From IMG/VR virus record IMGVR_UViG_3300044675_005052: a stretch of 64,000 nucleotides of DNA; one strand, 5' to 3'. The notes beneath the pieces are model-generated. The model did no database searches, had not been told where the DNA came from, and saw only the letters and a list, made by a program, of their open reading frames with translations. The DNA is from a virus. Taxonomy: Duplodnaviria > Caudoviricetes. Positions 1-29,183 of the stretch are shown here, in pieces (positions within the stretch are counted from its first letter, which is position 1; every line of letters begins with the position of its first letter). Made by a program: the position numbers and the translations under genes.

Positions 1-76
1 CAAAATATTATAATTATTTAAACATTAAAAATTTAAATACTAATCCATATCAAATTATAAAAAAATATTATAAAAA

Positions 77-2599
77 ATGAAATTAATCGTTCTGGCATAC
101 ACTTCAAAAAAATATATGAGTGAAAAGTCATATATACCATTTGACCCAATACAATCAGATAGAGCTGATTTAACTAGAAAATTACCATGTATGGATACTT
201 GGGTATCTAAATTAAAAGATAAAAATATTGAAGTTATTTTTTTTGATGGAGACAATCCGGAAGTATCTTTTGATGAAAAAAATCAAATTTTACATCTAAC
301 CGAAACCGATACATATGACTATTATTATTTACATCATCAAAAAAAACCATCTAATATGGTTAAAAAACTTCAAGGAGCCATAACATGGTTATTAAAAAAT
401 AGAGAATTTGATTATATTTTAAGAGTTGACGATGGCACCTATGTTAATTCATTTGTTTTAGAGAAATATTTTAATGAAATTATTGATAAAGACATTATAT
501 GGTCCGGACAAGGTGGTGGTGGAGGAATGTTCTTCAGTAAAAAAATATGTGAAGAAATTTTAAATATACATGACGAAACTAATCATTTGGAAGATGCTAC
601 ATTAATGCAACACTTTTCAAAAATACCTGAAGTTAAATTTCATACAATTGATACCATGTCTGCTTTTTATAATTTAGGTGAAAAAAATTTAACAATTCAT
701 TATTCAACAGGTAAACGAATGTATTATTGTGATTTTATTATTAGTAATTACTATAATAATTTAAAATCTAATAGAAAAGTTATTCTAAATTATGAATGGT
801 CTTCAGGTATTGAATTAAATACTAATAGAGTTAGCGGTACAGAAGGTAAGACAGGTGCCTGGTATGGGTTAGACCGAGATAACAATAATTGGGAATACTA
901 TGGTGGTTACGCTAGAAGTATATCTGATATATATGATAGAACAATAACATATGGTGATGAAGTTATACAAAATCTATGTGTTTTTAATTTTAAAAATCCC
1001 CATGACCTAAAAATTGAAAACACATTTAATAATTTACTTAAAACAATAGTAAAAGACGGTGAAATTAATATCTTTTTTAGTTTAAATGATGGTGTTATTA
1101 TTAATGAAAATACCTATAATATTATTTTAAAAATGATTAAAAATTTAAATTATGAATATGAAATTTTAAATGATGTGAATTTTAAAGAATACACTCAAGC
1201 GCAATATATCCAACCGGACGAAAAAGGATTAATTATTAGAATTTTAAAAACAAATAAAATTAAAAAAATTTACATCGCACAATATTACACAAGTAATTTA
1301 ACTCATGGACCATTTGCTGAAAAAATAAATAAAAAATATTGTGATGAAAATGGATATGGATATTTTTGTGAAAAATCAAATCAAACAATAACGGATTACA
1401 TAAATGGTGCGGCACCTACTTGGTACAAACCAAAGTTAATATTAGACGTTATTGAAAATTTTGACCCTGAATATATACTATTTTTAGATACGGATGCTAT
1501 AGTATCAGATTTTAATATTAGAATTGAAGAATTTATTGATAAAGATTATTATTTTATCGCCTCATTAGATGAAAGTACTCATAGTTTAATGAACGCCGGA
1601 GTATTTTTAATAAAAAATAATGAATGGGGTAAAAAATTTCTTAATGATTGGGCTCTTTGTTGTAAAAACTTAAAACCTATTGATTGTGAATTAAGACCTG
1701 AAGTTGGTGAACATGATTTAAATCATGAAGGATTTTATTCTAATAGATTATGGATGGACCAAACCGCATTAACTCATTTATATAAAGATAGAGGTGAGTA
1801 CGTTAGTAAAATGAAAATTATTTCAAATAGAAGTTTTAATTGGAAACAATATAACGATAATAATTTTATTTTTCATGCGTATGCGTATGGTAGTATTAAA
1901 AATAGAACTATAGATAAGATTCATAATGAAATTTTTAATATAAATGAAAATTATGATTATTCAAAATTAAGTGGTTTAGCTGAAAAATATACGACAGATA
2001 AACATTATGGACATGATTTTTTTGATAAAGTTTATCAACTTGAATTTGATAAAATCAAAGAATCTGCAAAAAAAGTTGTTGAATTAGGTGTTCATGAAGG
2101 ACAATCAATTAACATATGGAGAGAATTTTTCACTAATGCGGAAATAATAGGTATTGATTTTGAAATGAATAGAGCTAATATTGATGATTTTAATCGAGTT
2201 AAATTATTAGAATTTAATGTTAATGTTGGTAATACTTTAATCGAGTTTTCAAATGATAATGTGGATATAGATTTATTTATTGACGATGGAAGTCATGCAA
2301 TGAAAGACCAACAAGTTGTTTTTGCTAAATTATTTAAAAGTATAAAAAGTGGTGGTATATACATATTAGAGGATTTACATACAAGTGTTAGTGTAAAGAA
2401 TGATGTTAATTCAATATGGAAATCTGAAAAAAATACGATAACACTTGATATGTTAGAAATGTTTAATAAAACAGGTAAAATAGTTTCAGATTATATGACA
2501 GATGAAGAATGTGATTATCTTGAAAAAAATATTGAATCGTGTGAAATTTTTAAACTTAAACCTGAATGGAGTTATACCAGTATAATTAGAAAAAAATAA
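77..2599 (+). CDS. Three-domain glycan-modifying protein: N-terminal GT-A (galactosyltransferase/Fringe-like), central GT34/MNN10-like glycosyltransferase, C-terminal class I SAM-dependent methyltransferase
   Basis: YILRVDDGTYVN (DxD-type) in domain 1; WYKPKLI, YILFLDTDAIV, MNAGVFLIKN and DQTAL in domain 2; VVELGVHEGQS, IIGID, LFIDDGSH and GGIYILEDL in domain 3. Confidence 0.75.
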   Translation: MKLIVLAYTSKKYMSEKSYIPFDPIQSDRADLTRKLPCMDTWVSKLKDKNIEVIFFDGDNPEVSFDEKNQILHLTETDTYDYYYLHHQKKPSNMVKKLQGAITWLLKNREFDYILRVDDGTYVNSFVLEKYFNEIIDKDIIWSGQGGGGGMFFSKKICEEILNIHDETNHLEDATLMQHFSKIPEVKFHTIDTMSAFYNLGEKNLTIHYSTGKRMYYCDFIISNYYNNLKSNRKVILNYEWSSGIELNTNRVSGTEGKTGAWYGLDRDNNNWEYYGGYARSISDIYDRTITYGDEVIQNLCVFNFKNPHDLKIENTFNNLLKTIVKDGEINIFFSLNDGVIINENTYNIILKMIKNLNYEYEILNDVNFKEYTQAQYIQPDEKGLIIRILKTNKIKKIYIAQYYTSNLTHGPFAEKINKKYCDENGYGYFCEKSNQTITDYINGAAPTWYKPKLILDVIENFDPEYILFLDTDAIVSDFNIRIEEFIDKDYYFIASLDESTHSLMNAGVFLIKNNEWGKKFLNDWALCCKNLKPIDCELRPEVGEHDLNHEGFYSNRLWMDQTALTHLYKDRGEYVSKMKIISNRSFNWKQYNDNNFIFHAYAYGSIKNRTIDKIHNEIFNINENYDYSKLSGLAEKYTTDKHYGHDFFDKVYQLEFDKIKESAKKVVELGVHEGQSINIWREFFTNAEIIGIDFEMNRANIDDFNRVKLLEFNVNVGNTLIEFSNDNVDIDLFIDDGSHAMKDQQVVFAKLFKSIKSGGIYILEDLHTSVSVKNDVNSIWKSEKNTITLDMLEMFNKTGKIVSDYMTDEECDYLEKNIESCEIFKLKPEWSYTSIIRKK

Positions 2600-2600
2600 T

Positions 2601-4283
2601 ATGAATAGTAATGTGACAATAGTTACCGGTCTTTGGGATTTAGGTCGCGGTAATCTTGATGGGTGGGGTAAGAGAGATTTTTCAAATTACAAGACAAAGT
2701 TTTTTGAAATGTTAGAGACAAATGCTCAAATGTGTATTTGGATTCCCCAAGAATTAGAAGATGAAGTATTAAAAATTAGAGGTAATAAACCTACTAAAAT
2801 TTTTATTAAAAATGTTGAGGATTTTGAATCTTGGAATCCTTTTTTTGACGATATTGAAAAAATTAGGTCACAAGATAATTGGAGAAATTTTGCGGGATGG
2901 TTATCCGAATCTCCCCAAGCTGAATTAAAATATTATAATCCAATGATGTTTACTAAATTTTTTATGTTAAATGACTCCGCAATTATAAATCCGTTTAATA
3001 GTGATTATTTCTTTTGGGTTGATGGTGGATTAACTAACACCGTTAATAAAGGTTATTTCAGTCATGACAATGTTTTGGATAATTTGGAAAATTATGTTCG
3101 TTTCAACAATAATAAATTTATTCAAATATCATATCCTTATGATGGTAATGAAGAGATTCATGGATTTGAAAGAAAAGCTATGGCTCGTTACTGTAATACC
3201 GATTACGTTAGTTATGTGTGTCGAGGCGGTTTTTTTGGTGGGAGTAAAAATAACATTCACCAAATGAATGACTATTATTATTCAGTAATGCACGATACGT
3301 TAAAAGAAGGGTTAATGGGTGCCGATGAATGTTTATTTACAATACTTTCTTATAAACATAAAGATTTAATATATAGATTTGAAATTGAGGGTAATGGTTT
3401 AGTTTGGCCTTTCTTTGAAGAGTTAAAAAAATATACAAAAGATTTTGTACAAAATAATAAACCTCAAATCAATACAGATAATGTTGGTTTATATGTGATA
3501 ACTTTTAATTCTCCAAAACAATTTGAAGTGTTAATTCAATCTATGTTGGATTATGATAAAGATTTTGTTGAAAAACCTAAAAAATATTTATTAAATAATT
3601 CGACCGATTTATCAACAACTCCAAGATATGTTGAGTTATGTGAACAATATGGGTTTGAACATATTAAGAAAGATAATATCGGTATAGTTGGTGGACGTAT
3701 CTTTGTTGCTGACCACTTTGATAAAACAAATCACGATTATTATTTTTGGTTTGAAGATGATATGGCATTTTATCCTAACAAAAATGAAACATGTAAAAAT
3801 GGGTTTAACAGATGGGTATCCAATTTATATAAAAAATCTTTAGAAATAGTAAAAAAAGAAAATTTTGATTTTTTAAAACTTAATTTTACTGAATTTTTTG
3901 GTGATAATGGTACTCAATGGAGTTGGTATAATGTTCCACAAGATTTTAGACAAAGACATTGGCCCGATAATCCGAGATTACCTGAACATGGGTTAGAACC
4001 TAATTCACCTAAAACAAAATTTGAAAATATTAAATCTTACGATGGATTACCATACGTGACAGGTGAAGTTTATGTATGTAATTGGCCTATTGTTGTAAGT
4101 AGAGAAGGAAACTATAAATGTTTTTTAGAAACTAAATGGGCTCACCCTTTTGAGCAAACTTTAATGTCTTATGTTTATCAAGAAACTGTTATGGGAAATA
4201 TTAAACCTGGGTTATTATTATTAACTCCAACAGAACATGATAGATTTGACCATTATGATGGTTCGTTAAGAAAAGAAAGTTAA
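2601..4283 (+). CDS. HtrL/YibB (WlaTC)-like glycosyltransferase fused to a C-terminal GT2-like domain
   Basis: N-terminal VTIVTGLWDLGRG and YFFWVDGG resemble HtrL_YibB; second half has LYVITFNSP, LLNNSTD, DNIGIVGGR and YFWFEDDM (GT-A DxD-like). Confidence 0.7.
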   Translation: MNSNVTIVTGLWDLGRGNLDGWGKRDFSNYKTKFFEMLETNAQMCIWIPQELEDEVLKIRGNKPTKIFIKNVEDFESWNPFFDDIEKIRSQDNWRNFAGWLSESPQAELKYYNPMMFTKFFMLNDSAIINPFNSDYFFWVDGGLTNTVNKGYFSHDNVLDNLENYVRFNNNKFIQISYPYDGNEEIHGFERKAMARYCNTDYVSYVCRGGFFGGSKNNIHQMNDYYYSVMHDTLKEGLMGADECLFTILSYKHKDLIYRFEIEGNGLVWPFFEELKKYTKDFVQNNKPQINTDNVGLYVITFNSPKQFEVLIQSMLDYDKDFVEKPKKYLLNNSTDLSTTPRYVELCEQYGFEHIKKDNIGIVGGRIFVADHFDKTNHDYYFWFEDDMAFYPNKNETCKNGFNRWVSNLYKKSLEIVKKENFDFLKLNFTEFFGDNGTQWSWYNVPQDFRQRHWPDNPRLPEHGLEPNSPKTKFENIKSYDGLPYVTGEVYVCNWPIVVSREGNYKCFLETKWAHPFEQTLMSYVYQETVMGNIKPGLLLLTPTEHDRFDHYDGSLRKES

Positions 4284-4307
4284 TTTGTTTATTTTTGGAA
4301 AGCAAAG

Positions 4308-4319
4308 TATTTATAAATA
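4308..4319 (+). promoter_or_regulatory. Putative late promoter motif (palindromic TATTTATAAATA)
   Basis: 10 nt before the BppU-like start. Confidence 0.6.
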
Positions 4320-4329
4320 AAAACAATAG

Positions 4330-5175
4330 ATGGATTTTTTTATAAAGAAAAACGCAACCTTACCGGTACTAAAGTTACAAGTGGTTAAAGACGGAAGAAG
4401 TGACTATAATAAGTTTATGGATATGATTGAAGAATCGGCCATTTTCTTCTCAATGGTTGACGTAGAAACCGGTATTCCAAAAATAAGTTCAAGACCCGCA
4501 GGGTTTGTTGAAAAAACTTTTGTTGATTTAAACTCCGGTCCTGAATATTACATTTACTATCAATTTACTCCAAGAGATACTAATAGAGTTGGTAGATATG
4601 CCGGTCAGTTTATGTTAAGAAATTCTGATGGTGTTCTTATATTACCAATACGTGAAGAATTATTTATTAATGTTCAAGATTCGTTTATTGCGGATGATTT
4701 AGTTTATGATAGTTGTTACGTGTCAGAATTTCCTTGTTGTATTAATGGACCTTATACTACAACAACAACTACAGAATGTTGTCCTTGTACTACAACTACT
4801 ACCACAATTAATCATACTACAACCACAACCACAACAGTTCCTGTATTATCTGAAGTTAATATGGGTTCAGGTATTTATGATGATATTGGTCATTTATTTA
4901 TTGATTTTATTGCTGACGGACCTCAACTAATTAAATGTATTGTTGAAGATTATGTATTAGCCCCTCCTTTTTATATTATTGGTGGTGAGAATTATTATAT
5001 GTACACCCCATTACAAATAGGTGGAACAATTTATAGTGACCCTAATGGACAAACAATTTCATTGATTAATGATGGTAGTTATGTTACTCAAGTAAACGGA
5101 TATCAAGTAATTACCGTTTTTAATTCTATAATCACCGGAATTGTTAATTTTAATAATTTACTTCCATGTCATTAA
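4330..5175 (+). CDS. Virion protein with BppU-like N-terminal Ig-fold domain and Thr/Cys-rich linker
   Basis: FFIKKNATLPVL...YYQFTPRDTNRVGRYAGQF...LPIREELFINV fits the BppU-N pattern; poly-Thr linker; TATTTATA motif upstream. Confidence 0.55.
   Translation: MDFFIKKNATLPVLKLQVVKDGRSDYNKFMDMIEESAIFFSMVDVETGIPKISSRPAGFVEKTFVDLNSGPEYYIYYQFTPRDTNRVGRYAGQFMLRNSDGVLILPIREELFINVQDSFIADDLVYDSCYVSEFPCCINGPYTTTTTTECCPCTTTTTTINHTTTTTTTVPVLSEVNMGSGIYDDIGHLFIDFIADGPQLIKCIVEDYVLAPPFYIIGGENYYMYTPLQIGGTIYSDPNGQTISLINDGSYVTQVNGYQVITVFNSIITGIVNFNNLLPCH
4756..4836 (+). repeat. Thr-codon low-complexity tract (TTTTTTECCPCTTTTTTINHTTTTTTT)
   Basis: ACN-rich codon runs read directly. Confidence 0.9.
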
Positions 5176-9787: not shown

Positions 9788-11326
9788 TCAACTTAATGTA
9801 TAAATCAGGTCTTCTTTAGGGAAAATAAACTGACCGTCCATTATTTTTGAATGTTTATTGTCAAAGACCAAAACTTCTTTATTATTACGAGTAAAAATTA
9901 ACCAATCCGTTGAGTATCGTTTAACATTTCCTGTTCCTAAAATCATTATTGAATCTTTAATTTCTTTTTCACCGGTAAATGGTTTAATTTGTGCAGTTTT
10001 TTTAACACCATCAACAATTACTTCACAATCAACACCACCAATCATATCTTCTTTACTCCCAAGTTTACCGATAGCATTAACGTTATCATTACCAAATTGT
10101 TTTTTTAATATTTCAATAGTTTTATCTTCTCTTGATTGTCCCCAACTATTAGTTTGGGTTAAAACTTTCATAAGATTTTGGAATGTGGATGATTTTTGTG
10201 AGAATATTCTAAATTTGTATTCGTCTAAAACGTCAACAAGTTTTCGAACTTCACTTATTTGTTCAAATGGTTTTAGGCCAATCATTTTTATTTCAGGTAA
10301 TTGTTTGGATATTAAAACTTGATTAACATCATTAAGTAAAACACAAAAACAACTATAGTTTGTGTTTAGTTTATTTAAAACTGAACGACCTTGAGTTTCT
10401 AAATCATATACTCCGGCAACTTCACCTTCGGCATATTCGTTATTTCCATAATAGTTGTCGGGAAAAACTTCTTTTAACATTCTGTTAATTCCGTCTTTGA
10501 AGATTGTTTTAACTTTTGGATTGATGTTGAATACCATACGAATCGCCTCATTCATTTCTCTACTACATCTTTCAGATTTACCTTCAGAAATAACAGATTT
10601 TAATTCAGCACTTTCATTTAATTTATTATCCACTCTCATTGTGTATAATTTGTTAACAAATTCCCAATTTACACATTTCCAAAAGTTTTTAATGTAGTCA
10701 TCTTTTTTGTTTCTGTATTTTAGGTAGTAGGCGTGTTCCCATAAATCTAATCCTAAAATTGGGTATCCACCATCTTCAACTACATTCATTAATGGATTGT
10801 CTTGATTTGCGGTAGATACAATTTTTAAGGTGTTTCTTTTTGTTAGGACTAACCAAACCCATCCTGAACCGAATCTATCTTTTGCAATAGTTTCAAATTC
10901 TTTTTTGAAGTTGGCAAATGTATTAAAATCTTTTTTGATTTGTTTGATTACATCACCATTTGGAGTTTGAGTTTTTGGTGATAACATTTTCCAAAATAAT
11001 GCGTGGTTAAATGCTCCTCCTGCATTATTTCTTATAGTTTTATTAAATCTACTGATAGATTTAACTATTTCTTCAAGTTCTAAATCACCATAATCTTTGT
11101 TTTTAAGAGCGGCGTTTAGTTTATCTACGTAACCTTTATAATGTTTGTTATAATGGTAGTTCATTGTTTCAGCATCAATAAATTGCTTTAGTGCTGAATA
11201 GGAATAAGGTAATTTATCGATTCCTATCTTTTTCATCTCATTAAGAAAGAGTGTTTCATTTTCTTGTTTTTCAACATTTTGAATCTCTTCCGTAATGAGT
11301 TTGATTTTATTTTCAATATGTTTCAT
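9788..11326 (-). CDS. sodA: Fe/Mn superoxide dismutase (Mn-type signature) fused to a C-terminal PD-(D/E)xK-like domain
   Basis: LPYSYSAL, HYNKHYKGY, NNAGGAFNHALFW, GSGWVWL, TANQDNP, DLWEHAYY (all four metal ligands present); about 270 extra C-terminal aa with D..GGVD and AQIK. Confidence 0.9.
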   Translation of the reverse strand: MKHIENKIKLITEEIQNVEKQENETLFLNEMKKIGIDKLPYSYSALKQFIDAETMNYHYNKHYKGYVDKLNAALKNKDYGDLELEEIVKSISRFNKTIRNNAGGAFNHALFWKMLSPKTQTPNGDVIKQIKKDFNTFANFKKEFETIAKDRFGSGWVWLVLTKRNTLKIVSTANQDNPLMNVVEDGGYPILGLDLWEHAYYLKYRNKKDDYIKNFWKCVNWEFVNKLYTMRVDNKLNESAELKSVISEGKSERCSREMNEAIRMVFNINPKVKTIFKDGINRMLKEVFPDNYYGNNEYAEGEVAGVYDLETQGRSVLNKLNTNYSCFCVLLNDVNQVLISKQLPEIKMIGLKPFEQISEVRKLVDVLDEYKFRIFSQKSSTFQNLMKVLTQTNSWGQSREDKTIEILKKQFGNDNVNAIGKLGSKEDMIGGVDCEVIVDGVKKTAQIKPFTGEKEIKDSIMILGTGNVKRYSTDWLIFTRNNKEVLVFDNKHSKIMDGQFIFPKEDLIYTLS

Positions 11327-16320: not shown

Positions 16321-19300
16321 ATGGCATCAAATCAAAAAGTATTCGTATCTCCCGGAGTATATACTTCTGAAGTTGATTTAAGTTTCGTAGCACAAAGTGT
16401 GGGGGTTACCACGTTGGGTATTGTGGGTGAGACCTTAAAAGGTCCTGCTTTCGAACCTATCTTTATACGAAATTTTGATGAATTCACAAATTTCTTCGGT
16501 GGAACTTCTCCAGAAAAATTTATAAATACACAAATTCCAAAGTACGAAGCAGCTTATATTGCTAAATCATACTTACAACAATCTAACCAATTATTCGTAA
16601 CGAGAGTTTTAGGATTATCTGGTTATGATGCAGGACCATCTTGGTCTATAACAACAAAAGCTAATGTTGACCCAACAACGGTTGATTTCTTTTGTGAAAG
16701 TGCAACAACGTTTAGTTGTATAACTGAATGTATTGACTTTAAAACAATTAATTATTCTATTGAATTCTCAGCATGTACTAACAGTATTGATAGTATAGTG
16801 TTTACTAACACATCTAATTTAGCTCCTGAGATATCTTCAATATTGTACGAACCTTACGAACAATTCGATGGTAGTATGAGTACATTGTATACTGATTTCT
16901 CTAAACAAATTTTTGATATAGTTTCAAAACCGGAAAAAGAAGATACTTCAATCTATTACTATGGGGCAATACCAACTAGTGTTTATTCAGGATTAAGTGA
17001 AGTATATACAGGTGAAACAAATGTTTATGAAGTTGATAATGTAAGTGCTAATTTATGTAATTATTCTGCACCACAAAATGACCCTTGGTATTACTCATTA
17101 TTTGATAATATTGGTGATGCTGCTTATACAGGGTTTTCATTTTGGTCTGTTGTAACAGGATTAACATTAACACCTATTATTACAACAACAACTACGACTG
17201 ACCCACATACAACAACTACTACGACTGACCCATGTACGACTACAACATCAACATCAACTACTTCAACAACAACCGCAAAACCGGTTCATTGTTATACAGG
17301 TACATTGATAGGTGTTATTTATGTCTACTCGGGAACAGCATATACAGATTATGATGATTTAGTAATCGCTACGTTACGTTCAAGAGGTCTTTCAACATAT
17401 GGTTTAGATGATGGTCCGGTTTATGAAGTGTCAGGATTAACTGATGTTACTTTAGATTGTACAGGAACATATTCTGGTGTAACTAAAAATCCATTTTCAA
17501 CTTTTGGTGTTAACATCACAAGTAAAGATGGTGACCAATATTTCTTTGAAACATCCTTTTCAAACTCTGACCCTAAATATGTAAGTAAAGTATTTGGAGC
17601 GTCTAACTTCTCTAAACCAAGAACTGTAGTTCCGTTATTTGTTGAAGAAAGATTCCAAGCTTTATTAACAAATGCTTGGAGAATGGGTTATATTAGAGGT
17701 TTAAATTGTGAATTAACTGCTTTACCTGATGCTCGTCAAGAGGCTAACCCAACATCAATAGCATTTTATTTAGAAAAATATCAATCTCCGGTATCACCTT
17801 GGGTTGTTTCTGAATTAAGAGGTAATAAAGTTTATAACTTATTTAAATTTACAACAATTGCTGATGGTGATTCTGCTAACGTTGATATTAAGATATCGTT
17901 AGCTAATATGTCATTTAACAATGGTACTTTTGATGTATTGGTTAGAGATTTCTTTGATACAGATTCTGCACCGGTTGTTCTTGAAAAATATACTGATTGT
18001 ACAATGAATCCTCAAGAAAATTCATTTGTTGGTAAAAAAATTGGTAGTTTAGATGGGGAATATCCTTTATTATCAAGTTATATTATGGTTGAGATTAACG
18101 AGGATGCTCCGATAGACGCACTTCCTTGTGGATTCTTAGGATATGATTATAGAGAATATGCTGGTGTAAGACCACCATTCCCATTAATCAAAGCTAAATA
18201 CTACTATCCTGGTGAGGTTGTTTATAACCCACCATTTGGTTTAGCATCAGGTGCGGACGACACAACTACAAGTGCGGGTGATAATGTAAGAAGAACTTAC
18301 TTAGGTATTTCAGATACTGAAGGTATTGACGTTGATTTCTTCCAATATAAAGGAACAAGAATTCCAGCAAGTGTATGTTTTAATACTGAAGGTTTACCTT
18401 GGAACTTTAGAACAAAAGGATTCCATATGGATAAAAACGCAAGTGGTATTACAATTCCTAATGTGTTTGTTACTAGTGGTACACCGGCGTTCTTCTGTGG
18501 TGATGCACCATTTACGTCAGACCCTGATGACCCTGAAAATCCTTATTATAGAATTTTTGCTCGTAAATTTACTTTACTTGTTAAAGGTGGTTTTGATGGA
18601 TGGGACATTTATAGAGAATTTAGAACAAATAAAGATGAATTTGTATTAGGTAGACGAGGTTACTTAAAAGGAGCTTGTTCTACCGCAAGATACCCTTCCG
18701 CGACAGGTTGGGGTGCATTCAAACAAATTAGTGTTGCAGGTAATACTCAAGATTTTGCGAATACCGATTATTACGCTTATTTATTGGGTCAAGAAACATT
18801 TGCAAATCCTGAAGCGGTAAACATTAACGTGTTTGTTACACCGGGTATTGATTATGTAAATAACTCTAATTTAGTTGAAAATGCTATCGATATGATAGAA
18901 TATAGTAGAGCGGATTCATTGTACGTTTGTACAACACCTGACTACAAGATGTATGTTCCTTCGACAGGTAATCAATTTGATTTTATTTACCCACAAGAGG
19001 CAGTAGATAATTTAGCAAATTCAGGTATTGACTCTAACTACACGGCTACTTACTACCCTTGGGTATTAATGAGAGATACGGTTAACAATACACAAATTTA
19101 CTTACCAGCAACTGCTGAGGTAACGAGAAACTTAGCGTTAACAGACAACATCGCTTATCCTTGGTTCGCGGCTGCGGGTTACACGAGAGGTATTGTAAAT
19201 GCGGTTAAAGCGAGAGTTAAATTGACTCAAGAGAATAGAGATACTCTATATCAAGGTCGTTTAAATCCAATCGCAACGTTTTCAGATGTTGGAACAGTAA

Positions 19301-27100: not shown

Positions 27101-29183
27101 AGGTGAGTCAGGTAGTGGTTCTCAAGTTGATTGTAGTAAAGACATTAAATCAAATACAAATACAGAAACTTCAAATAATTTGGCTCAAGTATTTTCAACT
27201 GACGCTATGGCGTGTAGAAGGGTTAAAATTAATAGTATTCTTGTTACTCCAACAGTAACAACTACTACGACAACTCAAAAAGTTGAAATTATAACACCTG
27301 ATGTTAGTGGTACAACAATTAACACAGTTAAACCGGTTCAAACTGTTGAAATACAACAAAAATTAAAAGAAGGTATTGGTAAACGAATTATTAGACAATT
27401 ATTAACAGAGTGTGATTATTTTGACGTTATTAAAGAAACTAATCCTATGGTGTATGGTTCTATAGCGGATAAAATTAGATTTTTTAATCCAGCTTTTCAC
27501 TCTATGACACCTGAAGGATTAAATGCCCGATTGACTTTTTTAAATCAATGTGTTAGACCTGGTGAAACCATACCTGTTATTGGTGTTGATGGTAAACCAA
27601 AATATAATGACGCGGTAAATACTGCCTTTGGGGCACCACCGGTTTTAGTATTAAGAGTTGGGGATTTTTATAATGGTAAAATAATTCCAAAAACAATTTC
27701 ATTTTCATATGAGCCATTAATATTAGATATGAATCCTGAAGGTATCGGTATCCAACCAATGATAGCAAATGTTAATTTAAGTTTTGATATGATTGGTGGT
27801 ATGGGATTAGCTAGACCTGTGGAACAACTACAAAATGCGTTATCATTTAATTTCTACGCTAATACTGAAATTTATGATGAAAGAGCGACATGGACTGAAG
27901 ATACTTCAGCTTTGGATGCTAAATTAGTTCAGTCAATATTAGATGCACAACCACCGGTTACAGTTAACAATGTTCAAAATGGTGTGGTTAATGATGGTGG
28001 AAATACGATTGGAGATATCTTAACTAATATTCCTGTAACAAGTGGTCAAACAGGTGAAATTACCTACATGACTATAATGGATAAAATATTAGATTCAACA
28101 CAAGAATATTATACAAACATACTAAATCAAAGTGATAGTATTGTCAAATCTTACAATTATGGTGTTTGGCAGTTAATTACTCAAGATAGATTATATACTT
28201 CCGGAGAAATAAGTTTAAATTCTAGTAGTATATTGGCGCCAATTTATGGGAAACCGGAAGGTGTTGAAACTAAAGTGGATTCATTGTTTAGTACGTTTAT
28301 TTCAGATATAAATGCGGATAATCCAACAAATAAAAATTACATCATATCACGATTAGTTGGTTTTAAATTTACGGATGCAACAATTCAAAGAGTTAAAACA
28401 AATATGAATCAATATATTAACTCATTAAAAGGTGATTATAGTAGTGGTTTATTTACTAAAATTCAAGAAATAGTTGTCTTGGAACAAAACATGGTTCAGA
28501 TAATTAGAAAAATCAATTTAGTTACAACTAAAACTGATGGTAAGATTTTAGATACGGGTGTTCCTCGTGTTTATACTATATCAGGTACAACTGAAGTTAA
28601 TAGTGCTAGTCTTGGGTCTCCATTGGATACGTATGTGGAATTATGTGATGATTATCGTTTAGTTGGTCTTAGATTAGATGAGTTTAATCTTTTAATGGAT
28701 GCTGAAAAAATAATCACAACTGTTACATCACCATATGAAGGTCCGGGTGAATTTGAGCCAAAATCTAAACAATTTGAAACGGCATCAGTTGAAGATAAAA
28801 GACAATTCATGGTAATGGCTCAAATATTTAACGATAAAAATAAATTAACACAATTTATAAACGCTATTATTAGTGGTGAGTTAAAGAATGATAATAAATT
28901 GGTTAGAAAATTTAATAATATTTGTGATGATTTTGCGGATTTAACTAAAAAAGAGTTAGTTGCTGAGCAAAAATTTATTAAAACAATTAGGGATAAAGAA
29001 TCATATTCAAAATTTGTGAACCAACCTGCTTATCCTAAAGGTAAGTTAAGAAAATTTACATATACAACAGTTCCTGACCCTGCAACAGAAGCACAACAAA
29101 AAACGGATATTGCTAATTTATATAAAACGGTTAACGTAAATAATGATAAATTAACTTTTGATGGCAAAATAAAATTTGATTAA
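24174..29183 (+). CDS. Large baseplate / tube-initiator protein (gp48/gp54-like modules) containing an OmpA-C-like domain
   Basis: MWFPPYDLKFSDSSTANWNDTSFLGRPEPIYTY and PVLVLRVGDFYNGKIIPKTISFSYE tube-like modules; GSASA..YNENLSKRRNDSV..GKGE..CRRVKI OmpA-like pattern. Confidence 0.6.
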   Translation: MAESSLSFASTSSFRNSLMVKNLAPYSVQGVYTPPVSQVNYETILSISNVIDSPGELITNGSYSNLLYPLNEYGPDGGYSTQINFNGPPLPVASNQGEYNPNDTVLDLVNEFFIDAAYIQNRYGPPGSFNDLVIITDVENNNKIYQPYWEPPSFAPSSYSPYNILLSPNPIGSNGLLSQDSFIARFGATELNSLLKKRIDAELFQNTLGQINLQSLQDPFEISMMLSGQQPLVYKNWKITVPENPVVAAADFLTRLAGAYWPVSLIPGDYFNDNNENSQTQQTSNALNTVNQLTGGLLGPILNLNRSGSQIFLANTGNGQRSVLFANINYNRYQPSYDKDYGLLFGVAQGLVNLLVPNINPGNGTLVGGYYVGNRTSEPSYITSPPNQIPVNAFGQQDPSPVYGPSEMGILYEGNESALSNFGLGGRSYSDGGGIDGGFVWVSPKYKANAGFRAIPGGGSGTMDEDFQLVSGNITRDESTNIEFKETSILDQTQRLIDSADGVTGEARLKHVGNAMNQISKVFHDGYKEITKGSQVLSYTDNTTGGDAGIEYCRVFTKDNPYYAYNDLQKTDGITTAGRRFTHSVLDNTYNLNIAPLRNPGSTNIIANNVNGTGGYAKKYMFSIENLAWRTSSRPGFTYDELPVCEKGPNGGRVMWFPPYDLKFSDSSTANWNDTSFLGRPEPIYTYKNTSRSGQLSWKIIVDSPSVMNTIVEKQLKGQSKERINSIIDSFFAGCVKYDIYDLALKFNTIPTKDLYTYQEILSNPRLTDEELKNVSASIPRENSVPQGGAGTPADAVVQTANPDTSIDDFKKNYSQLAFYFDNDIPDPKSDGVVSSVPYNITYSAYTAPSNITKYVDTSSGIFNTGSVNRNVKEFFDNIVISNFNKIANNSSNFIVDAYNILKEKKGTISIQMVGSASATASVKYNENLSKRRNDSVIQFLKTYKIGDANLSTFFEDKTLQITLQSGKGEQIVIPQGESGSGSQVDCSKDIKSNTNTETSNNLAQVFSTDAMACRRVKINSILVTPTVTTTTTTQKVEIITPDVSGTTINTVKPVQTVEIQQKLKEGIGKRIIRQLLTECDYFDVIKETNPMVYGSIADKIRFFNPAFHSMTPEGLNARLTFLNQCVRPGETIPVIGVDGKPKYNDAVNTAFGAPPVLVLRVGDFYNGKIIPKTISFSYEPLILDMNPEGIGIQPMIANVNLSFDMIGGMGLARPVEQLQNALSFNFYANTEIYDERATWTEDTSALDAKLVQSILDAQPPVTVNNVQNGVVNDGGNTIGDILTNIPVTSGQTGEITYMTIMDKILDSTQEYYTNILNQSDSIVKSYNYGVWQLITQDRLYTSGEISLNSSSILAPIYGKPEGVETKVDSLFSTFISDINADNPTNKNYIISRLVGFKFTDATIQRVKTNMNQYINSLKGDYSSGLFTKIQEIVVLEQNMVQIIRKINLVTTKTDGKILDTGVPRVYTISGTTEVNSASLGSPLDTYVELCDDYRLVGLRLDEFNLLMDAEKIITTVTSPYEGPGEFEPKSKQFETASVEDKRQFMVMAQIFNDKNKLTQFINAIISGELKNDNKLVRKFNNICDDFADLTKKELVAEQKFIKTIRDKESYSKFVNQPAYPKGKLRKFTYTTVPDPATEAQQKTDIANLYKTVNVNNDKLTFDGKIKFD

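What the first reader, a model, noticed from the sequence alone, without database searches (positions are those of the whole stretch)
77..5175. Candidate virion O-glycosylation system: glycosyltransferase/methyltransferase cluster plus mucin-like Thr/Pro tracts on several virion proteins
Seen: two adjacent genes hold about four GT-like domains and one SAM methyltransferase, directly followed by a virion gene with a poly-Thr linker. Similar tracts recur only in structural genes: sheath 17182-17274, baseplate protein near 27243-27275, and fibre 63416-63663; the replication genes have none. Established: Thr/Ser/Pro-rich linkers are typical O-glycan acceptors, and GT-encoding mycobacteriophages are known to glycosylate their virions. 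Inference: this phage builds a methyl-capped glycan on exposed Thr tracts of the sheath, baseplate and fibres (shielding, stability or adhesion), which would be unusual for a T4-like myophage. Alternative: the enzymes remodel host LPS/capsule, since HtrL-like proteins are linked to LPS loci.
Basis: partly seen in the sequence, partly recalled or inferred. Interest (0 to 1): 0.78.

Follow-up and report, generated by a model that had tools for sequence, protein, structure and literature searches.

The report
Phage sugar-transferase island beside threonine-tagged virion proteins
An uncultured T4-like jumbo phage carries a tightly packed row of soluble sugar-adding and sugar-methylating enzymes next to tail proteins that bear runs of six threonines. 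It probably sugar-coats its own particle, but no glycan has been measured in this phage.

Summary
ORF1 (77-2599) has a probable GT31/Fringe-like domain, a GT34/PBCV-1-A064R-like GT-A domain and a sugar-O-methyltransferase-like domain. ORF2 (2601-4283) is a tandem of two GT-A domains, the first HtrL-like. ORF3 (4330-5175) carries three T6/T7 runs. Thr-rich tracts occur in 10 of 67 ORFs of the record and in none of the annotated replication genes.

The window cuts the island. Directly upstream, and translationally coupled, lie a reductase/epimerase-like gene and a strong PF11397 (CAZy GT60) gene. GT60 enzymes start mucin-type O-glycans, and the Trypanosoma cruzi enzyme is assayed on KPP-T8-KPP.

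The layout GT60 - variable transferase cassette - ORF2 - ORF3 family - DNA polymerase is conserved in many freshwater jumbo phages. GT60 and ORF2 also co-occur in four cultured Xanthomonas/Stenotrophomonas jumbo phages. One of these, XacN1, has Schiff-positive virion proteins.

Virion O-glycosylation is my best reading (about 0.55). Host-glycan and DNA-glycosylation rivals remain open. This scan has flagged GT60-led phage clusters before on other DNA.

The parts
1..80 (+). 3' end of a 225-aa reductase/epimerase-like (SDR-type) gene. Its TGA (78-80) overlaps the ATG of ORF1 (77-79). The island continues upstream of the window: the GT60/PF11397 gene is at G000:C1:96152-97399 and a TP-repeat + Hint-domain gene at about G000:C1:97464-98738, both on the window's + strand.
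   Evidence: Translation of window 3-80 ends ...KKYYKK* and matches the ORF at L005:74-751(-). Pfam Epimerase 4e-6, RmlD_sub_bind 5e-3, and PF11397 1.3e-70 for the next gene upstream.
77..2599 (+). ORF1, 840 aa, three catalytic modules. aa 1-240: probable GT-A, GT31/Fringe-like. aa 240-394: unassigned. aa 395-625: GT34/DUF273-type retaining GT-A with a DTD motif. aa 626-840: SAM methyltransferase of the MycE/TylE sugar-O-methyl type.
   Evidence: Pfam, PHROG 21658, PDB profile search, invariant motifs in 10 homologues, atlas lead for the N-domain. No TM segment.
2601..4283 (+). ORF2, 560 aa, two GT-A domains. aa 1-285: HtrL/YibB-like. aa 290-560: second GT-A with an invariant EDD motif. It starts 1 nt after the ORF1 stop.
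   Evidence: Pfam PF09612 5.7e-16. AF2 model pLDDT 82. Foldseek hits to dual-GT-A enzymes: Mimivirus R699, LH3, LARGE1, K4CP, PmHS2. E. coli HtrL TM 0.69. More than 6400 homologues at 64% identity or higher.
4330..5175 (+). ORF3, 281 aa. It has a conserved 137-aa N-terminal beta-sandwich (BppU_N-like virion anchor, probable), a 'PCC' motif, three T6/T7 runs interleaved with Cys/Pro (nt 4756-4836), and a lineage-specific C-terminal domain.
   Evidence: 120 of the 120 best homologues have PCC followed by a T run. 601 cluster representatives carry the domain, always N-terminal, with tails up to 1242 aa. VIA Z 8.3-8.7 to 80alpha/TP901-1 BppU. Atlas lead. Weak PF10651 hits in 2 of 32 distant members.
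4308..4319 (+). TATTTATAAATA motif 11-22 nt upstream of the ORF3 start. It contains both the T4-type TATAAATA and the TATTTAT seen upstream of the sheath, tube and other tail genes. Possible late promoter (weak evidence).
   Evidence: Neither motif is enriched over shuffles overall. Only its position upstream of start codons is suggestive.
16321..19653 (+). Tail sheath, 1110 aa. The conserved gp18-like part is aa ~720-1110, with large N-terminal extra domains.
   Evidence: PHROG 23, 1.7e-54; tblastn to T4-like sheaths.
17182..17274 (+). Sheath Thr-tag segment (T6-DP-H-T6-DPC-T4STSTTSTTT) between two conserved Cys. Other relatives carry an 80-150-aa Ig-like insert at exactly this position.
23867..23908 (+). 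Thr-rich segment in the 626-aa tail-region protein (22256-24136).
27258..27275 (+). T6 run in the 1669-aa tail-module protein (24174-29183). Function unknown; the label 'baseplate' is not verified.
   Evidence: No PHROG hit.
63419..63661 (+). TQ/TP repeat linker in a SprB-repeat fibre-like protein (61253-64342, running past the window end).

Best explanation
The window starts inside a four-gene, translationally coupled operon of soluble cytoplasmic enzymes: a GT60 polypeptide-GlcNAc-transferase homologue, a reductase/epimerase-like protein, ORF1 and ORF2.

The most likely mechanism is as follows.
1. During late infection the GT60 enzyme puts a first sugar (by family precedent alpha-GlcNAc) on threonines of exposed Thr-rich segments of the phage's own virion proteins. 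These segments are the T6 tags of the sheath surface loop, the ORF3 family protein, tail-module proteins, and the TP/TQ linkers of fibres.
2. The highly conserved two-domain ORF2 extends this sugar into a conserved core.
3. The lineage-variable cassette adds peripheral sugars and an O-methyl cap. Here the cassette is ORF1, with a GT31-like and a GT34/A064R-like transferase fused to a sugar O-methyltransferase. In relatives it holds GT2, GT10, GT7 or FkbM-type genes.
4. The result would be a mucin-like, strain-variable glycan coat on the tail.

Shown: the domain identities, the operon structure, the synteny, the tag distribution, and glycoprotein staining in the cultured relative XacN1. Inferred: the acceptor, the sugars, the order of steps and the biological role (shielding, stability or adhesion).
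For: 1. The gene two positions upstream of ORF1 matches PF11397/GT60 at 1.3e-70 (239 bits against a cutoff of 21) and keeps the D-S-H metal motif (sequence). Characterised GT60 enzymes are polypeptide alpha-GlcNAc transferases. The T. cruzi enzyme is assayed on KPPTTTTTTTTKPP (PMC3769586), the same kind of Pro-flanked poly-Thr run as here.
2. The four genes are coupled: 1-nt spacers and an ATGA overlap. No TM segment is present.
3. The ORF1 methyltransferase domain is closest to the sugar O-methyltransferases MycE and TylE (2e-19, 1e-18). Its GT-A domain hits the PBCV-1 capsid-glycan enzyme A064R D1. The GT-GT-MT order mirrors A064R (PMC7826918).
4. The synteny GT60 - variable GT cassette - ORF2 - ORF3 family - DNA pol holds in L002, L008, L010 and L012 and in most of 80 IMG/VR loci.
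5. The ORF3 family has a conserved N-terminal BppU_N-like domain followed by Thr/Pro-rich tails in 74 of 109 cluster representatives.
6. In the sheath the T-tag segment replaces an Ig-like insert found in relatives, so it sits at a variable position in the non-conserved N-terminal part of the protein.
7. TPTPTP-coding repeats are enriched 10-44 against 0-1 in all five clade genomes, and one lies within about 5 kb of GT60 in each.
8. Among 50,697 phage records, GT60 (46-49% identity) and full-length ORF2 (40% identity) occur in the same four jumbo phages. In XacN1 the island abuts the baseplate wedge genes and a 3313-aa TP-tract protein. XacN1 virions show at least two Schiff-stained glycoprotein bands (PMC5852040).
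9. Phage-encoded virion glycosylation has precedent in mycobacteriophages (PMC12363180, PMC11256854).
Against: - There are no glycan or proteomic data for this phage. The XacN1 glycoprotein bands were never assigned to proteins or to these enzymes.
- The co-occurrence test does not discriminate. The core island is present in both T-style (10/14) and non-T-style (15/17) loci, and no upstream gene family tracks T-tag use.
- The complete relatives G001 and G002 have the island but only 1-2 T6 sites, no more than a reversed-pattern control.
- Some ORF3 homologues have no Thr tail at all, being only 126 aa long.
- Three fragments (L068, L069, L084) have T-run sheaths but no island within 10 kb.
- Thr/Pro linkers are common in unglycosylated proteins.
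- GT-A enzymes whose best PDB hit is the PBCV-1 capsid glycosyltransferase can act on DNA glycans (bioRxiv 2023.12.21.572611), and the island lies next to the DNA polymerase gene.
- HtrL's only known genomic link is the LPS core locus.
Confidence: 0.55

Rival explanations
1. The island remodels or builds a host-cell glycan (LPS core, O-antigen, capsule or another lipid-linked polysaccharide) during infection. This could block superinfection, or make a polymer as LARGE1/K4CP-type dual transferases do. The Thr tracts would then be ordinary linkers.
For: The ORF2 N-domain belongs to the HtrL/YibB family, whose E. coli member lies in the LPS core locus (established knowledge). The best fold matches of ORF2 include the polysaccharide polymerases K4CP, PmHS2 and LARGE1 and the O-antigen protein RfbC. 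Soluble GT-A enzymes can act on lipid-linked acceptors at the inner membrane. A variable GT cassette between conserved genes also resembles O-antigen loci.
Against: The operon is led by a GT60 enzyme, and all characterised members of that family act on polypeptides. No flippase, polymerase, initiating phosphoglycosyl transferase or other membrane component lies in the island, and no TM segments are present. The island is conserved across hosts as different as Xanthomonas/Stenotrophomonas and the hosts of these AT-rich freshwater phages, which argues against one host-specific glycan. XacN1 virions themselves stain for glycoprotein.
Confidence: 0.15
2. The enzymes glycosylate (and methylate) a modified base in phage DNA, as in T4, RB69/DLP3 and the 5hmC-glycan clusters. 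This would explain the position next to the DNA polymerase and replication genes.
For: Phage GT-A enzymes, some with the PBCV-1 capsid glycosyltransferase as best PDB match, elongate glycans on 5hmC in DNA (bioRxiv 2023.12.21.572611). The island abuts DNA pol B. Thymidylate-synthase homologues exist in the two complete relatives.
Against: No ThyA-like, C5-methyltransferase or TET/JBP gene lies in or near the island. PF00145 is absent from five records, two of them complete, with a working control. PF12851 is absent too, but its control was silent, so that result is inconclusive. The ThyA homologues lie roughly 150-170 kb from the island. GT60, GT31-like and HtrL-type enzymes have no DNA precedent in the papers read. 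In XacN1 the island sits among baseplate and giant structural genes.
Confidence: 0.1
3. The island glycosylates proteins, but not the Thr tags highlighted by the first reader. Candidates are a non-virion phage or host protein, or only the TP linkers of fibres. The T6 tags would be a lineage-specific linker style unrelated to the enzymes.
For: The core island is independent of T6 style. T6 sites are rare in the island-bearing complete genomes. T tags co-vary between the sheath and ORF3 within lineages, as a compositional fashion would.
Against: Pro-flanked poly-Thr is the documented acceptor type for a GT60 enzyme. T6 units are strikingly uniform in length, are conserved at the protein level with mixed codons, and are placed in the variable N-terminal part of the sheath and directly after the conserved N-domain of ORF3.
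Confidence: 0.15

Closest known systems
CAZy GT60 / Pfam PF11397 polypeptide alpha-GlcNAc transferases (T. cruzi TcOGNT-2, Dictyostelium Gnt2 and Skp1-Gnt1)
   Same: The operon's first gene is a clear family member (1.3e-70) with the DxH motif. Like Gnt1 it is soluble. The candidate acceptors are Pro-flanked poly-Thr runs, as in the T. cruzi assay peptide KPP-T8-KPP. As in the Skp1 pathway, the initiator is followed by a two-domain transferase.
   Different: It is viral, and it carries a conserved extension of about 120 aa at the C-terminus that is shared with XacN1 ORF334. The donor, acceptor and anomeric linkage are untested. ORF2 showed no detected similarity to PgtA in the searches run.
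Chlorovirus PBCV-1 A064R (GT - GT - methyltransferase; builds and methylates the capsid N-glycan)
   Same: ORF1 has the same GT-GT-MT order in one polypeptide. Its central GT-A domain hits A064R domain 1 (2p6w, 2.6e-4). It is a virus-encoded, cytoplasmic, soluble enzyme that would cap a virion glycan with O-methyl.
   Different: The methyltransferase here is closest to MycE/TylE. The first domain is GT31-like rather than A064R-D1-like. The presumed linkage is O- to Thr rather than N- to Asn. The host is a bacterium.
Mycobacteriophage virion glycosylation (Che8, Corndog, Myrna; Freeman et al. 2023, as summarised in PMC12363180 and PMC11256854)
   Same: Phage-encoded transferases modify the phage's own capsid and tail proteins. 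The ORF1 methyltransferase domain finds methyltransferases that sit beside glycosyltransferase genes in several mycobacteriophages.
   Different: The transferase families differ, with no GT60 or HtrL-type enzyme reported there. The hosts and virion types also differ (siphoviruses against a T4-like jumbo myovirus). The primary paper could not be read here.
Xanthomonas jumbo phage XacN1 and relatives (Xoo-sp13, Stenotrophomonas CM1 and RAS14)
   Same: They carry orthologues of both core enzymes (GT60 46-49% identity, ORF2 40% identity, both full length) in one island with other sugar-modifying genes. A giant TP-tract protein and baseplate genes lie next to it. XacN1 virions contain Schiff-positive glycoproteins.
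   Different: The cassette holds a carbamoyltransferase instead of ORF1. No ORF3-family gene was detected. The published paper named only ORF328 and ORF334 as transferases and did not link them to specific proteins.
E. coli HtrL/YibB (PF09612)
   Same: The ORF2 N-domain matches the family at Pfam level and matches the E. coli HtrL model (TM 0.69 by hit).
   Different: It scores far below the NCBIfam equivalog cutoff (62 bits against 265), is fused to a second GT-A domain, and is phage-encoded. HtrL itself has no demonstrated activity.

Membership tests
GT60 / PF11397 (gene upstream of the window, G000:C1:96152-97399) | Match to the family HMM above the gathering score | tested here: met
   239.1 bits against a cutoff of 21, E 1.3e-70. 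Also found by the genome search in all five clade records.
GT60 / PF11397 | DxH metal-binding motif of the GT27/GT60 catalytic core | tested here: met
   The sequence reads ...LQIDSHMRF... and is conserved as ...MQLDSHHRF... in XacN1 ORF334. That this motif is the metal site rests on established knowledge of GT27/GT60.
GT60 / PF11397 | Transfers alpha-GlcNAc from UDP-GlcNAc to Thr/Hyp of a polypeptide | not testable with these tools
   Needs an enzyme assay on T6 or TP peptides.
GT34 (PF05637) / DUF273, ORF1 aa 395-625 | HMM match above cutoff and a DxD motif | tested here: met
   57.8 bits against 23. D471-x-D473 is invariant in 10 homologues. The PDB profile also hits xyloglucan xylosyltransferases and A064R D1.
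MycE/TylE-type sugar O-methyltransferases, ORF1 aa 626-840 | Sequence similarity of the methyltransferase core and a SAM-binding glycine motif | tested here: met
   3ssm 2.2e-19, 8ia9 1e-18. The E-x-G-V-x-x-G and DDGSH motifs are conserved. Pfam Methyltransf_31 and Methyltransf_24 score just below their cutoffs.
MycE/TylE-type sugar O-methyltransferases | Methylates a sugar hydroxyl | not testable with these tools
   Inference from homology only.
GT31 / Fringe (PF01762, PF02434), ORF1 aa 1-240 | Family HMM or fold match, and a DxD motif | tested here: inconclusive
   No Pfam hit in 11 members at E<=1. No PDB sequence hit. Atlas structure TM 0.50-0.53 and feature score 0.89 to Galactosyl_T/Fringe clusters. 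The R-x-D-D-G motif is invariant.
HtrL/YibB (PF09612, TIGR02192), ORF2 aa 1-285 | Pfam family membership | tested here: met
   59.4 bits against 24.1. Foldseek to E. coli HtrL: 1.6e-16, TM 0.69 by hit.
HtrL/YibB | Equivalog (same function as E. coli YibB) by the NCBIfam cutoff | tested here: not met
   62 bits against a cutoff of 264.9. It is a family-level relative only.
Dual GT-A bifunctional transferases (LH3, LARGE1, K4CP, PmHS2, Mimivirus R699) | Two GT-A domains in tandem, each with an acidic metal motif | tested here: met
   AF2 model and Foldseek probability 1.00, though TM is only 0.2-0.3 because the domain orientation differs. The W-x-D-G-G and E-D-D motifs are invariant in 25 homologues. 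This is similarity of architecture, not family membership.
BppU_N (PF10651) virion anchor, ORF3 aa 1-137 | Family HMM or fold match | tested here: inconclusive
   No Pfam hit for ORF3 itself. Two of 32 distant relatives hit PF10651 weakly (best E 0.031). VIA Z 8.3-8.7 to the 80alpha and TP901-1 BppU proteins, only slightly above the Ig-like background of 7-8. Atlas lead.
Phage DNA-glycosylation clusters (T4 a/b-GT; ThyA- or 5mYOX-linked GTs) | A hydroxymethyl- or hydroxy-pyrimidine-producing enzyme (ThyA homologue, or C5-MT + TET) clustered with the transferases | tested here: not met
   None lies in the island. PF00145 is absent from five records. The PF12851 search was silent, controls included. 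ThyA homologues lie far from the island in G001 and G002.
Mycobacteriophage-type virion glycosylation | Demonstrated glycans on capsid or tail proteins that depend on phage transferases | not testable with these tools
   The only indirect evidence is Schiff-positive bands in XacN1 virions.

The most novel reading that the evidence does not exclude
The uniform hexa-threonine units are dedicated glycosylation tags. This phage lineage would have swapped a folded Ig-like decoration domain on its contractile sheath for a short Cys-clamped mucin-like patch. That patch, the ORF3 fibre and the tail proteins would be coated by a GT60-initiated glycan with a conserved core (GT60 + ORF2) and a strain-variable, methyl-capped periphery. 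The outcome would be phage 'glyco-serotypes', widespread in freshwater jumbo phages and testable in cultured XacN1-type phages.
Probability: 0.3. Interest if true: 0.8.

Novelty: new variant of a known kind. Interest (0 to 1): 0.62.

Why it matters
Virion glycosylation by phage-encoded enzymes has been shown only in a few mycobacteriophages and is regarded as rare.

ORF2 alone has more than 6400 close homologues in metagenomes. The GT60 plus dual-transferase pair recurs from AT-rich freshwater jumbo phages to Xanthomonas and Stenotrophomonas jumbo phages. If this island glycosylates tail and fibre proteins, protein O-glycosylation would be a common, conserved feature of a large environmental phage group. 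It would also use an enzyme family otherwise known from protist mucin and Skp1 glycosylation.

This would bear on phage stability, adhesion to mucus or particles, host recognition and antigenicity. It would also give a bacterial-cytoplasm route to mucin-type glycoproteins. The question can be tested directly in the cultured phage XacN1, whose virions already stain for glycoprotein.

Tried and rejected
- Nucleotide search of phage records with 8 kb of the locus: no match.
- tblastn of ORF3 against phage records: no match.
- Sequence-based assignment of the ORF1 N-domain: Pfam on 11 members and a PDB profile search gave nothing meaningful. It remains a lead only.
- phmmer of the GT60 protein against PDB: only chance hits.
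- ORF3 full-length fold: only aa 1-122 are modelled with confidence. The Thr region and the C-terminal domain are not, with pLDDT below 50.
- Association test between T-tag style and any gene family within 10 kb upstream of DNA pol in 31 loci: no significant association. The ORF1-like gene occurs in 3 T-style loci and 0 non-T loci (p 0.08), and those loci are not phylogenetically independent.
- Searching fragments that lack the island near pol (L068, L069, L084, L023) for HtrL elsewhere: nothing found, but these records are only 14-31% complete. In L060 the gene had simply moved.
- Late-promoter argument: TATAAATA and TATTTAT are not enriched over shuffles. I kept this only as a positional hint.
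- PgtA-like identity of ORF2: PgtA was not among the top Swiss-Prot fold matches. I kept the Skp1 pathway only as an organisational analogy.
- The primary mycobacteriophage glycosylation paper (PMC10527164) is not held.

Full report
**What the window is.** The window is the reverse strand of G000:C1:31553-95552, part of a 98.7-kb viral record that CheckV rates 34% complete. GC content is about 31%. It encodes a T4-like structural module:
- a gp13-like protein, sheath, tube, baseplate hub and wedge;
- interleaved replication genes: family-B DNA polymerase, helicases, SSB, UvsX-like recombinase, DnaB-like helicase and ribonucleotide reductase.

Complete relatives are 308-322 kb, so this is a T4-like jumbo phage. 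The nearest cultured sheath relative is Microcystis phage Mel-JY01 at about 31% identity.

**Checking the observation.**
- ORF1 (840 aa) matches Pfam GT34/DUF273 at aa ~457-589 and methyltransferase models at aa ~660-790.
- A profile of ten full-length ORF1 homologues hits the sugar O-methyltransferases MycE (3ssm, 2e-19) and TylE (8ia9, 1e-18). With its central domain it also hits PBCV-1 A064R domain 1 (2p6w, 2.6e-4), xyloglucan xylosyltransferases, GT8 enzymes and a Skp1 alpha-galactosyltransferase.
- The first 240 residues of ORF1 have an invariant R-x-D-D-G motif. They resemble GT31/Fringe clusters in the ESM Atlas by features (0.89) and by structure (TM 0.50-0.53). Sequence searches gave nothing, so this domain is 'probable GT-A'.
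- ORF2 (560 aa) matches HtrL_YibB at aa 3-258. Its AlphaFold2 model (pLDDT 82) is a tandem of two GT-A domains.
- The best fold matches of ORF2 are dual-GT-A enzymes: Mimivirus R699, LH3/PLOD, LARGE1, chondroitin polymerase K4CP, heparosan synthase and COLGALT1. Its N-domain superposes on E. coli HtrL (TM 0.69 by hit).

So the count of 'about four GT-like domains plus one methyltransferase' is right.

**Thr tracts.** The tracts are at the stated coordinates and use mixed Thr codons. The record has eight runs of T6 or longer in 31,470 aa, against 0.006 expected from composition. Ten of 67 ORFs have Thr-rich segments:
- ORF3;
- the sheath;
- two tail-module proteins;
- fibre-like SprB-repeat proteins;
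- a TP-repeat/Hint protein;
- a few unassigned ORFs.

None of the annotated replication or nucleotide-metabolism genes has one.

**The window cuts the island.** Reading the genome upstream shows that window bases 3-80 are the end of a 225-aa reductase/epimerase-like gene (Pfam Epimerase and RmlD_sub_bind, weak). Its TGA overlaps the ORF1 ATG. One nucleotide upstream of that gene ends a 415-aa protein that matches PF11397 'GlcNAc' (CAZy GT60) at 1.3e-70 and carries the D-S-H motif. Upstream again lies a TP-repeat protein with a Hint domain. ORF2 starts one nucleotide after the ORF1 stop. GT60, the SDR-like gene, ORF1 and ORF2 therefore form one coupled operon of enzymes without transmembrane segments.

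This matters because GT60 enzymes are the polypeptide alpha-GlcNAc transferases that start mucin-type O-glycans in Trypanosoma cruzi and Dictyostelium. The T. cruzi activity is assayed on the peptide KPPTTTTTTTTKPP (PMC3769586). That is a Pro-flanked poly-Thr run, very like the ...IPITTTTTTIP... and ...TTTTTTDP... units seen here.

**ORF3.**
- Its first 137 residues are a highly conserved domain. Homologues share 75-99% identity over the N-terminal half of the query in hundreds of proteins, and 601 clusters at 50% identity carry the domain, always at the N-terminus.
- The domain ends in 'PCC'. Tails of very different length follow, from none to about 1240 aa, including papain-like peptidase and repeat-domain fibres.
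- All of the 120 best homologues have a run of at least four threonines (mostly six) right after PCC. Often this is the whole tail, giving 161-170-aa proteins ending ...CCPC-T6-IP.
- Across the wider family, 74 of 109 tails have T4+ or (T/S)P x3 tracts. Some relatives have no tail at all.
- The N-domain folds as a beta-sandwich (pLDDT 70-87). Its best structural matches are the N-terminal domains of baseplate protein BppU of phages 80alpha and TP901-1 (Z 8.3-8.7), only slightly above the generic Ig-like background.
- An atlas lead and weak PF10651 hits in 2 of 32 distant members point the same way.

A conserved N-terminal anchor with a variable C-terminus is the usual design of virion-attached fibres. 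I therefore rate 'virion protein' as probable (about 0.65), not shown.

**Comparative genomics.** The order GT60 - variable cassette - ORF2 - ORF3 family - DNA pol - gp13 - SOD fusion - helicase is conserved in metagenomic contigs. The cassette differs between relatives:
- the GT34-MT half of ORF1 as a separate gene;
- GT2-like, GT10 and GT7C genes;
- unassigned genes;
- FkbM methyltransferase fused to ORF2.

ORF2 itself is unusually conserved, with more than 6400 homologues at 64% identity or higher. A conserved initiator and conserved two-domain extender with a variable middle is what a conserved glycan core with a variable periphery would look like. That reading is an inference.

I fetched 80 IMG/VR loci anchored on the DNA polymerase, so that each spans both the island and the sheath's Thr site, and scored them.
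- Among 31 loci with at least 9 kb upstream, ORF2 is present in 10 of 14 with a T-run sheath and in 15 of 17 without.
- GT60 is present in 8 of 14 and 8 of 17, limited by the 10-kb flank. It is present in all five whole records searched.
- No upstream gene family tracks T-tag use.
- The complete relatives G001 and G002 carry the island but have only 1-2 T6-coding sites, no more than a reversed-pattern control.
- Three fragments have T-run sheaths but no island within 10 kb. They are only 14-31% complete, and in another record the HtrL gene had simply moved.

So the island is not specifically tied to T6 tags.

What is universal is TP repeats. TPTPTP-coding DNA occurs 10-44 times per record, against 0-1 for the control, and one such gene lies within about 5 kb of GT60 in each of five records. 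T6 tags thus look like a lineage-specific version of a general Thr/Pro acceptor-like segment. The test neither supports nor refutes the model.

**The sheath site.** Aligning sheaths across the clade shows that the T-tag segment sits between conserved blocks and two conserved cysteines. Other lineages carry an 80-150-aa Ig-like insert at exactly this position. The site lies in the large N-terminal part of the protein, outside the gp18-like core at aa ~720-1110. By established sheath architecture that part is the outward-facing one. T tags in the sheath and in ORF3 tend to occur in the same lineages, which fits either a shared trans-acting enzyme or a shared compositional habit.

**Cultured relatives and experimental support.**
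- Among 50,697 phage records, full-length ORF2 homologues (40% identity) occur only in Xanthomonas phages XacN1 and Xoo-sp13 and Stenotrophomonas phages CM1 and RAS14.
- GT60 homologues (46-49% identity, full length, including the C-terminal extension) occur in exactly the same four.
- In XacN1 the island holds GT60 ORF334 (PF11397, 3.2e-77), a carbamoyltransferase, two unassigned genes and ORF330. It lies beside a 3313-aa protein with TP tracts and the baseplate wedge genes.
- The XacN1 paper reports at least two Schiff-stained glycoprotein bands in purified virions. It suggested phage transferases as the cause, without identifying the proteins or noting ORF330 (PMC5852040).

This is the only wet-lab evidence bearing on the model, and it is indirect.

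**Rivals.**
1. Host glycan remodelling. In favour are the HtrL family's link to the LPS core locus and ORF2's resemblance to polysaccharide polymerases. Against it are the GT60 lead enzyme, the absence of any membrane or export component, and conservation across very different hosts.
2. DNA glycosylation. GT-A enzymes, some best matching the PBCV-1 capsid glycosyltransferase, do elongate glycans on 5hmC, and the island abuts DNA pol. However, no ThyA-like, C5-MT or TET gene is in or near it. PF00145 is absent from five records, and the ThyA homologues of the complete relatives lie far away.
3. Protein glycosylation of acceptors other than the T6 tags. This is compatible with the failed association test.

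I put virion O-glycosylation at about 0.55, and the rivals at 0.15, 0.10 and 0.15 respectively.

**Known and new.** Phage-encoded virion glycosylation is documented for mycobacteriophages (PMC12363180, PMC11256854). Multi-domain GT-GT-MT enzymes that build capsid glycans are documented for chloroviruses (PMC7826918). In the library searched I found no paper describing a GT60-led island in phages: GT60 is mentioned only as a CAZy tally in one virome preprint, and PF11397 in one algal genome paper. This scan has flagged GT60-led clusters beside Thr/Pro-rich proteins in several other jumbo-phage genomes, and a different transferase elsewhere in this same genome. Those are unchecked AI notes and I did not count them as evidence. 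I file this as a new variant of a known kind: plausible, widespread and directly testable, but unproven.

Noticed in passing
L005:2065-3339 (-), i.e. upstream of the window start, beyond the GT60 gene: A protein of more than 424 aa, running off the contig end. It has long (TP/TL/TS)n repeats followed by a Hint/intein-like domain (Pfam Hom_end_hint, PT-HINT, weak). It is a Thr/Pro protein directly adjacent to the GT60 gene; the role of the Hint domain is unknown.
   Followed up: partly
window 17158-17295 and loci L021, L037, L038, L060, L031: At one conserved, Cys-flanked junction of the tail sheath, some lineages carry T6 tags. Others carry an 80-150-aa Ig-like insert (motif ...SINYNTNTI.VV.P...), sometimes preceded by a further Gly-rich insert.
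   Followed up: partly
window 9788-11326 (-) and homologues in L002, L008, L010, L012: A Fe/Mn superoxide dismutase domain is fused to a further C-terminal region. It is conserved next to the gp13-like gene in all relatives seen, and grows to 873 aa in L010.
   Followed up: no
L006:6789-11963 (+), beyond the window end: A 1724-aa protein with three matches to the 'grass antifreeze beta roll' family (PF21300, 2.6e-11). It lies among SprB-repeat, Thr/Pro-rich fibre-like genes.
   Followed up: no
P0120, P0129, P0134; L031:2637-3740, L037:8806-9909: Some ORF3-family members carry a papain-like peptidase C1 domain after the conserved N-domain, with or without Thr tags. This would be a possible virion-attached protease.
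   Followed up: no
G001:C1:48722-50707 and G002:C1:5332-7607: The thymidylate-synthase homologues of the two complete relatives match the Pfam model in two or three separated pieces. In G001 most of these lie within one 679-aa open frame, which suggests an inserted element such as an intein or an extra domain.
   Followed up: no
L093 (XacN1 207569-227191): In XacN1 the position of ORF1 is taken by a 765-aa carbamoyltransferase. The glycan there may be carbamoylated rather than methylated.
   Followed up: partly
window 15: The window differs from the held genome record at a single base: T in the window, G in the record. This changes one residue (Y/D) near the C-terminus of the SDR-like protein.
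   Followed up: yes
window 4308, 13182, 16277, 20663, 22235, 24151, 48111: TATTTAT lies 10-45 nt upstream of the starts of ORF3, the sheath, the tube and other tail genes. It also lies upstream of the GT60 gene, but not of ORF1 or ORF2. It is not enriched over shuffles overall.
   Followed up: partly
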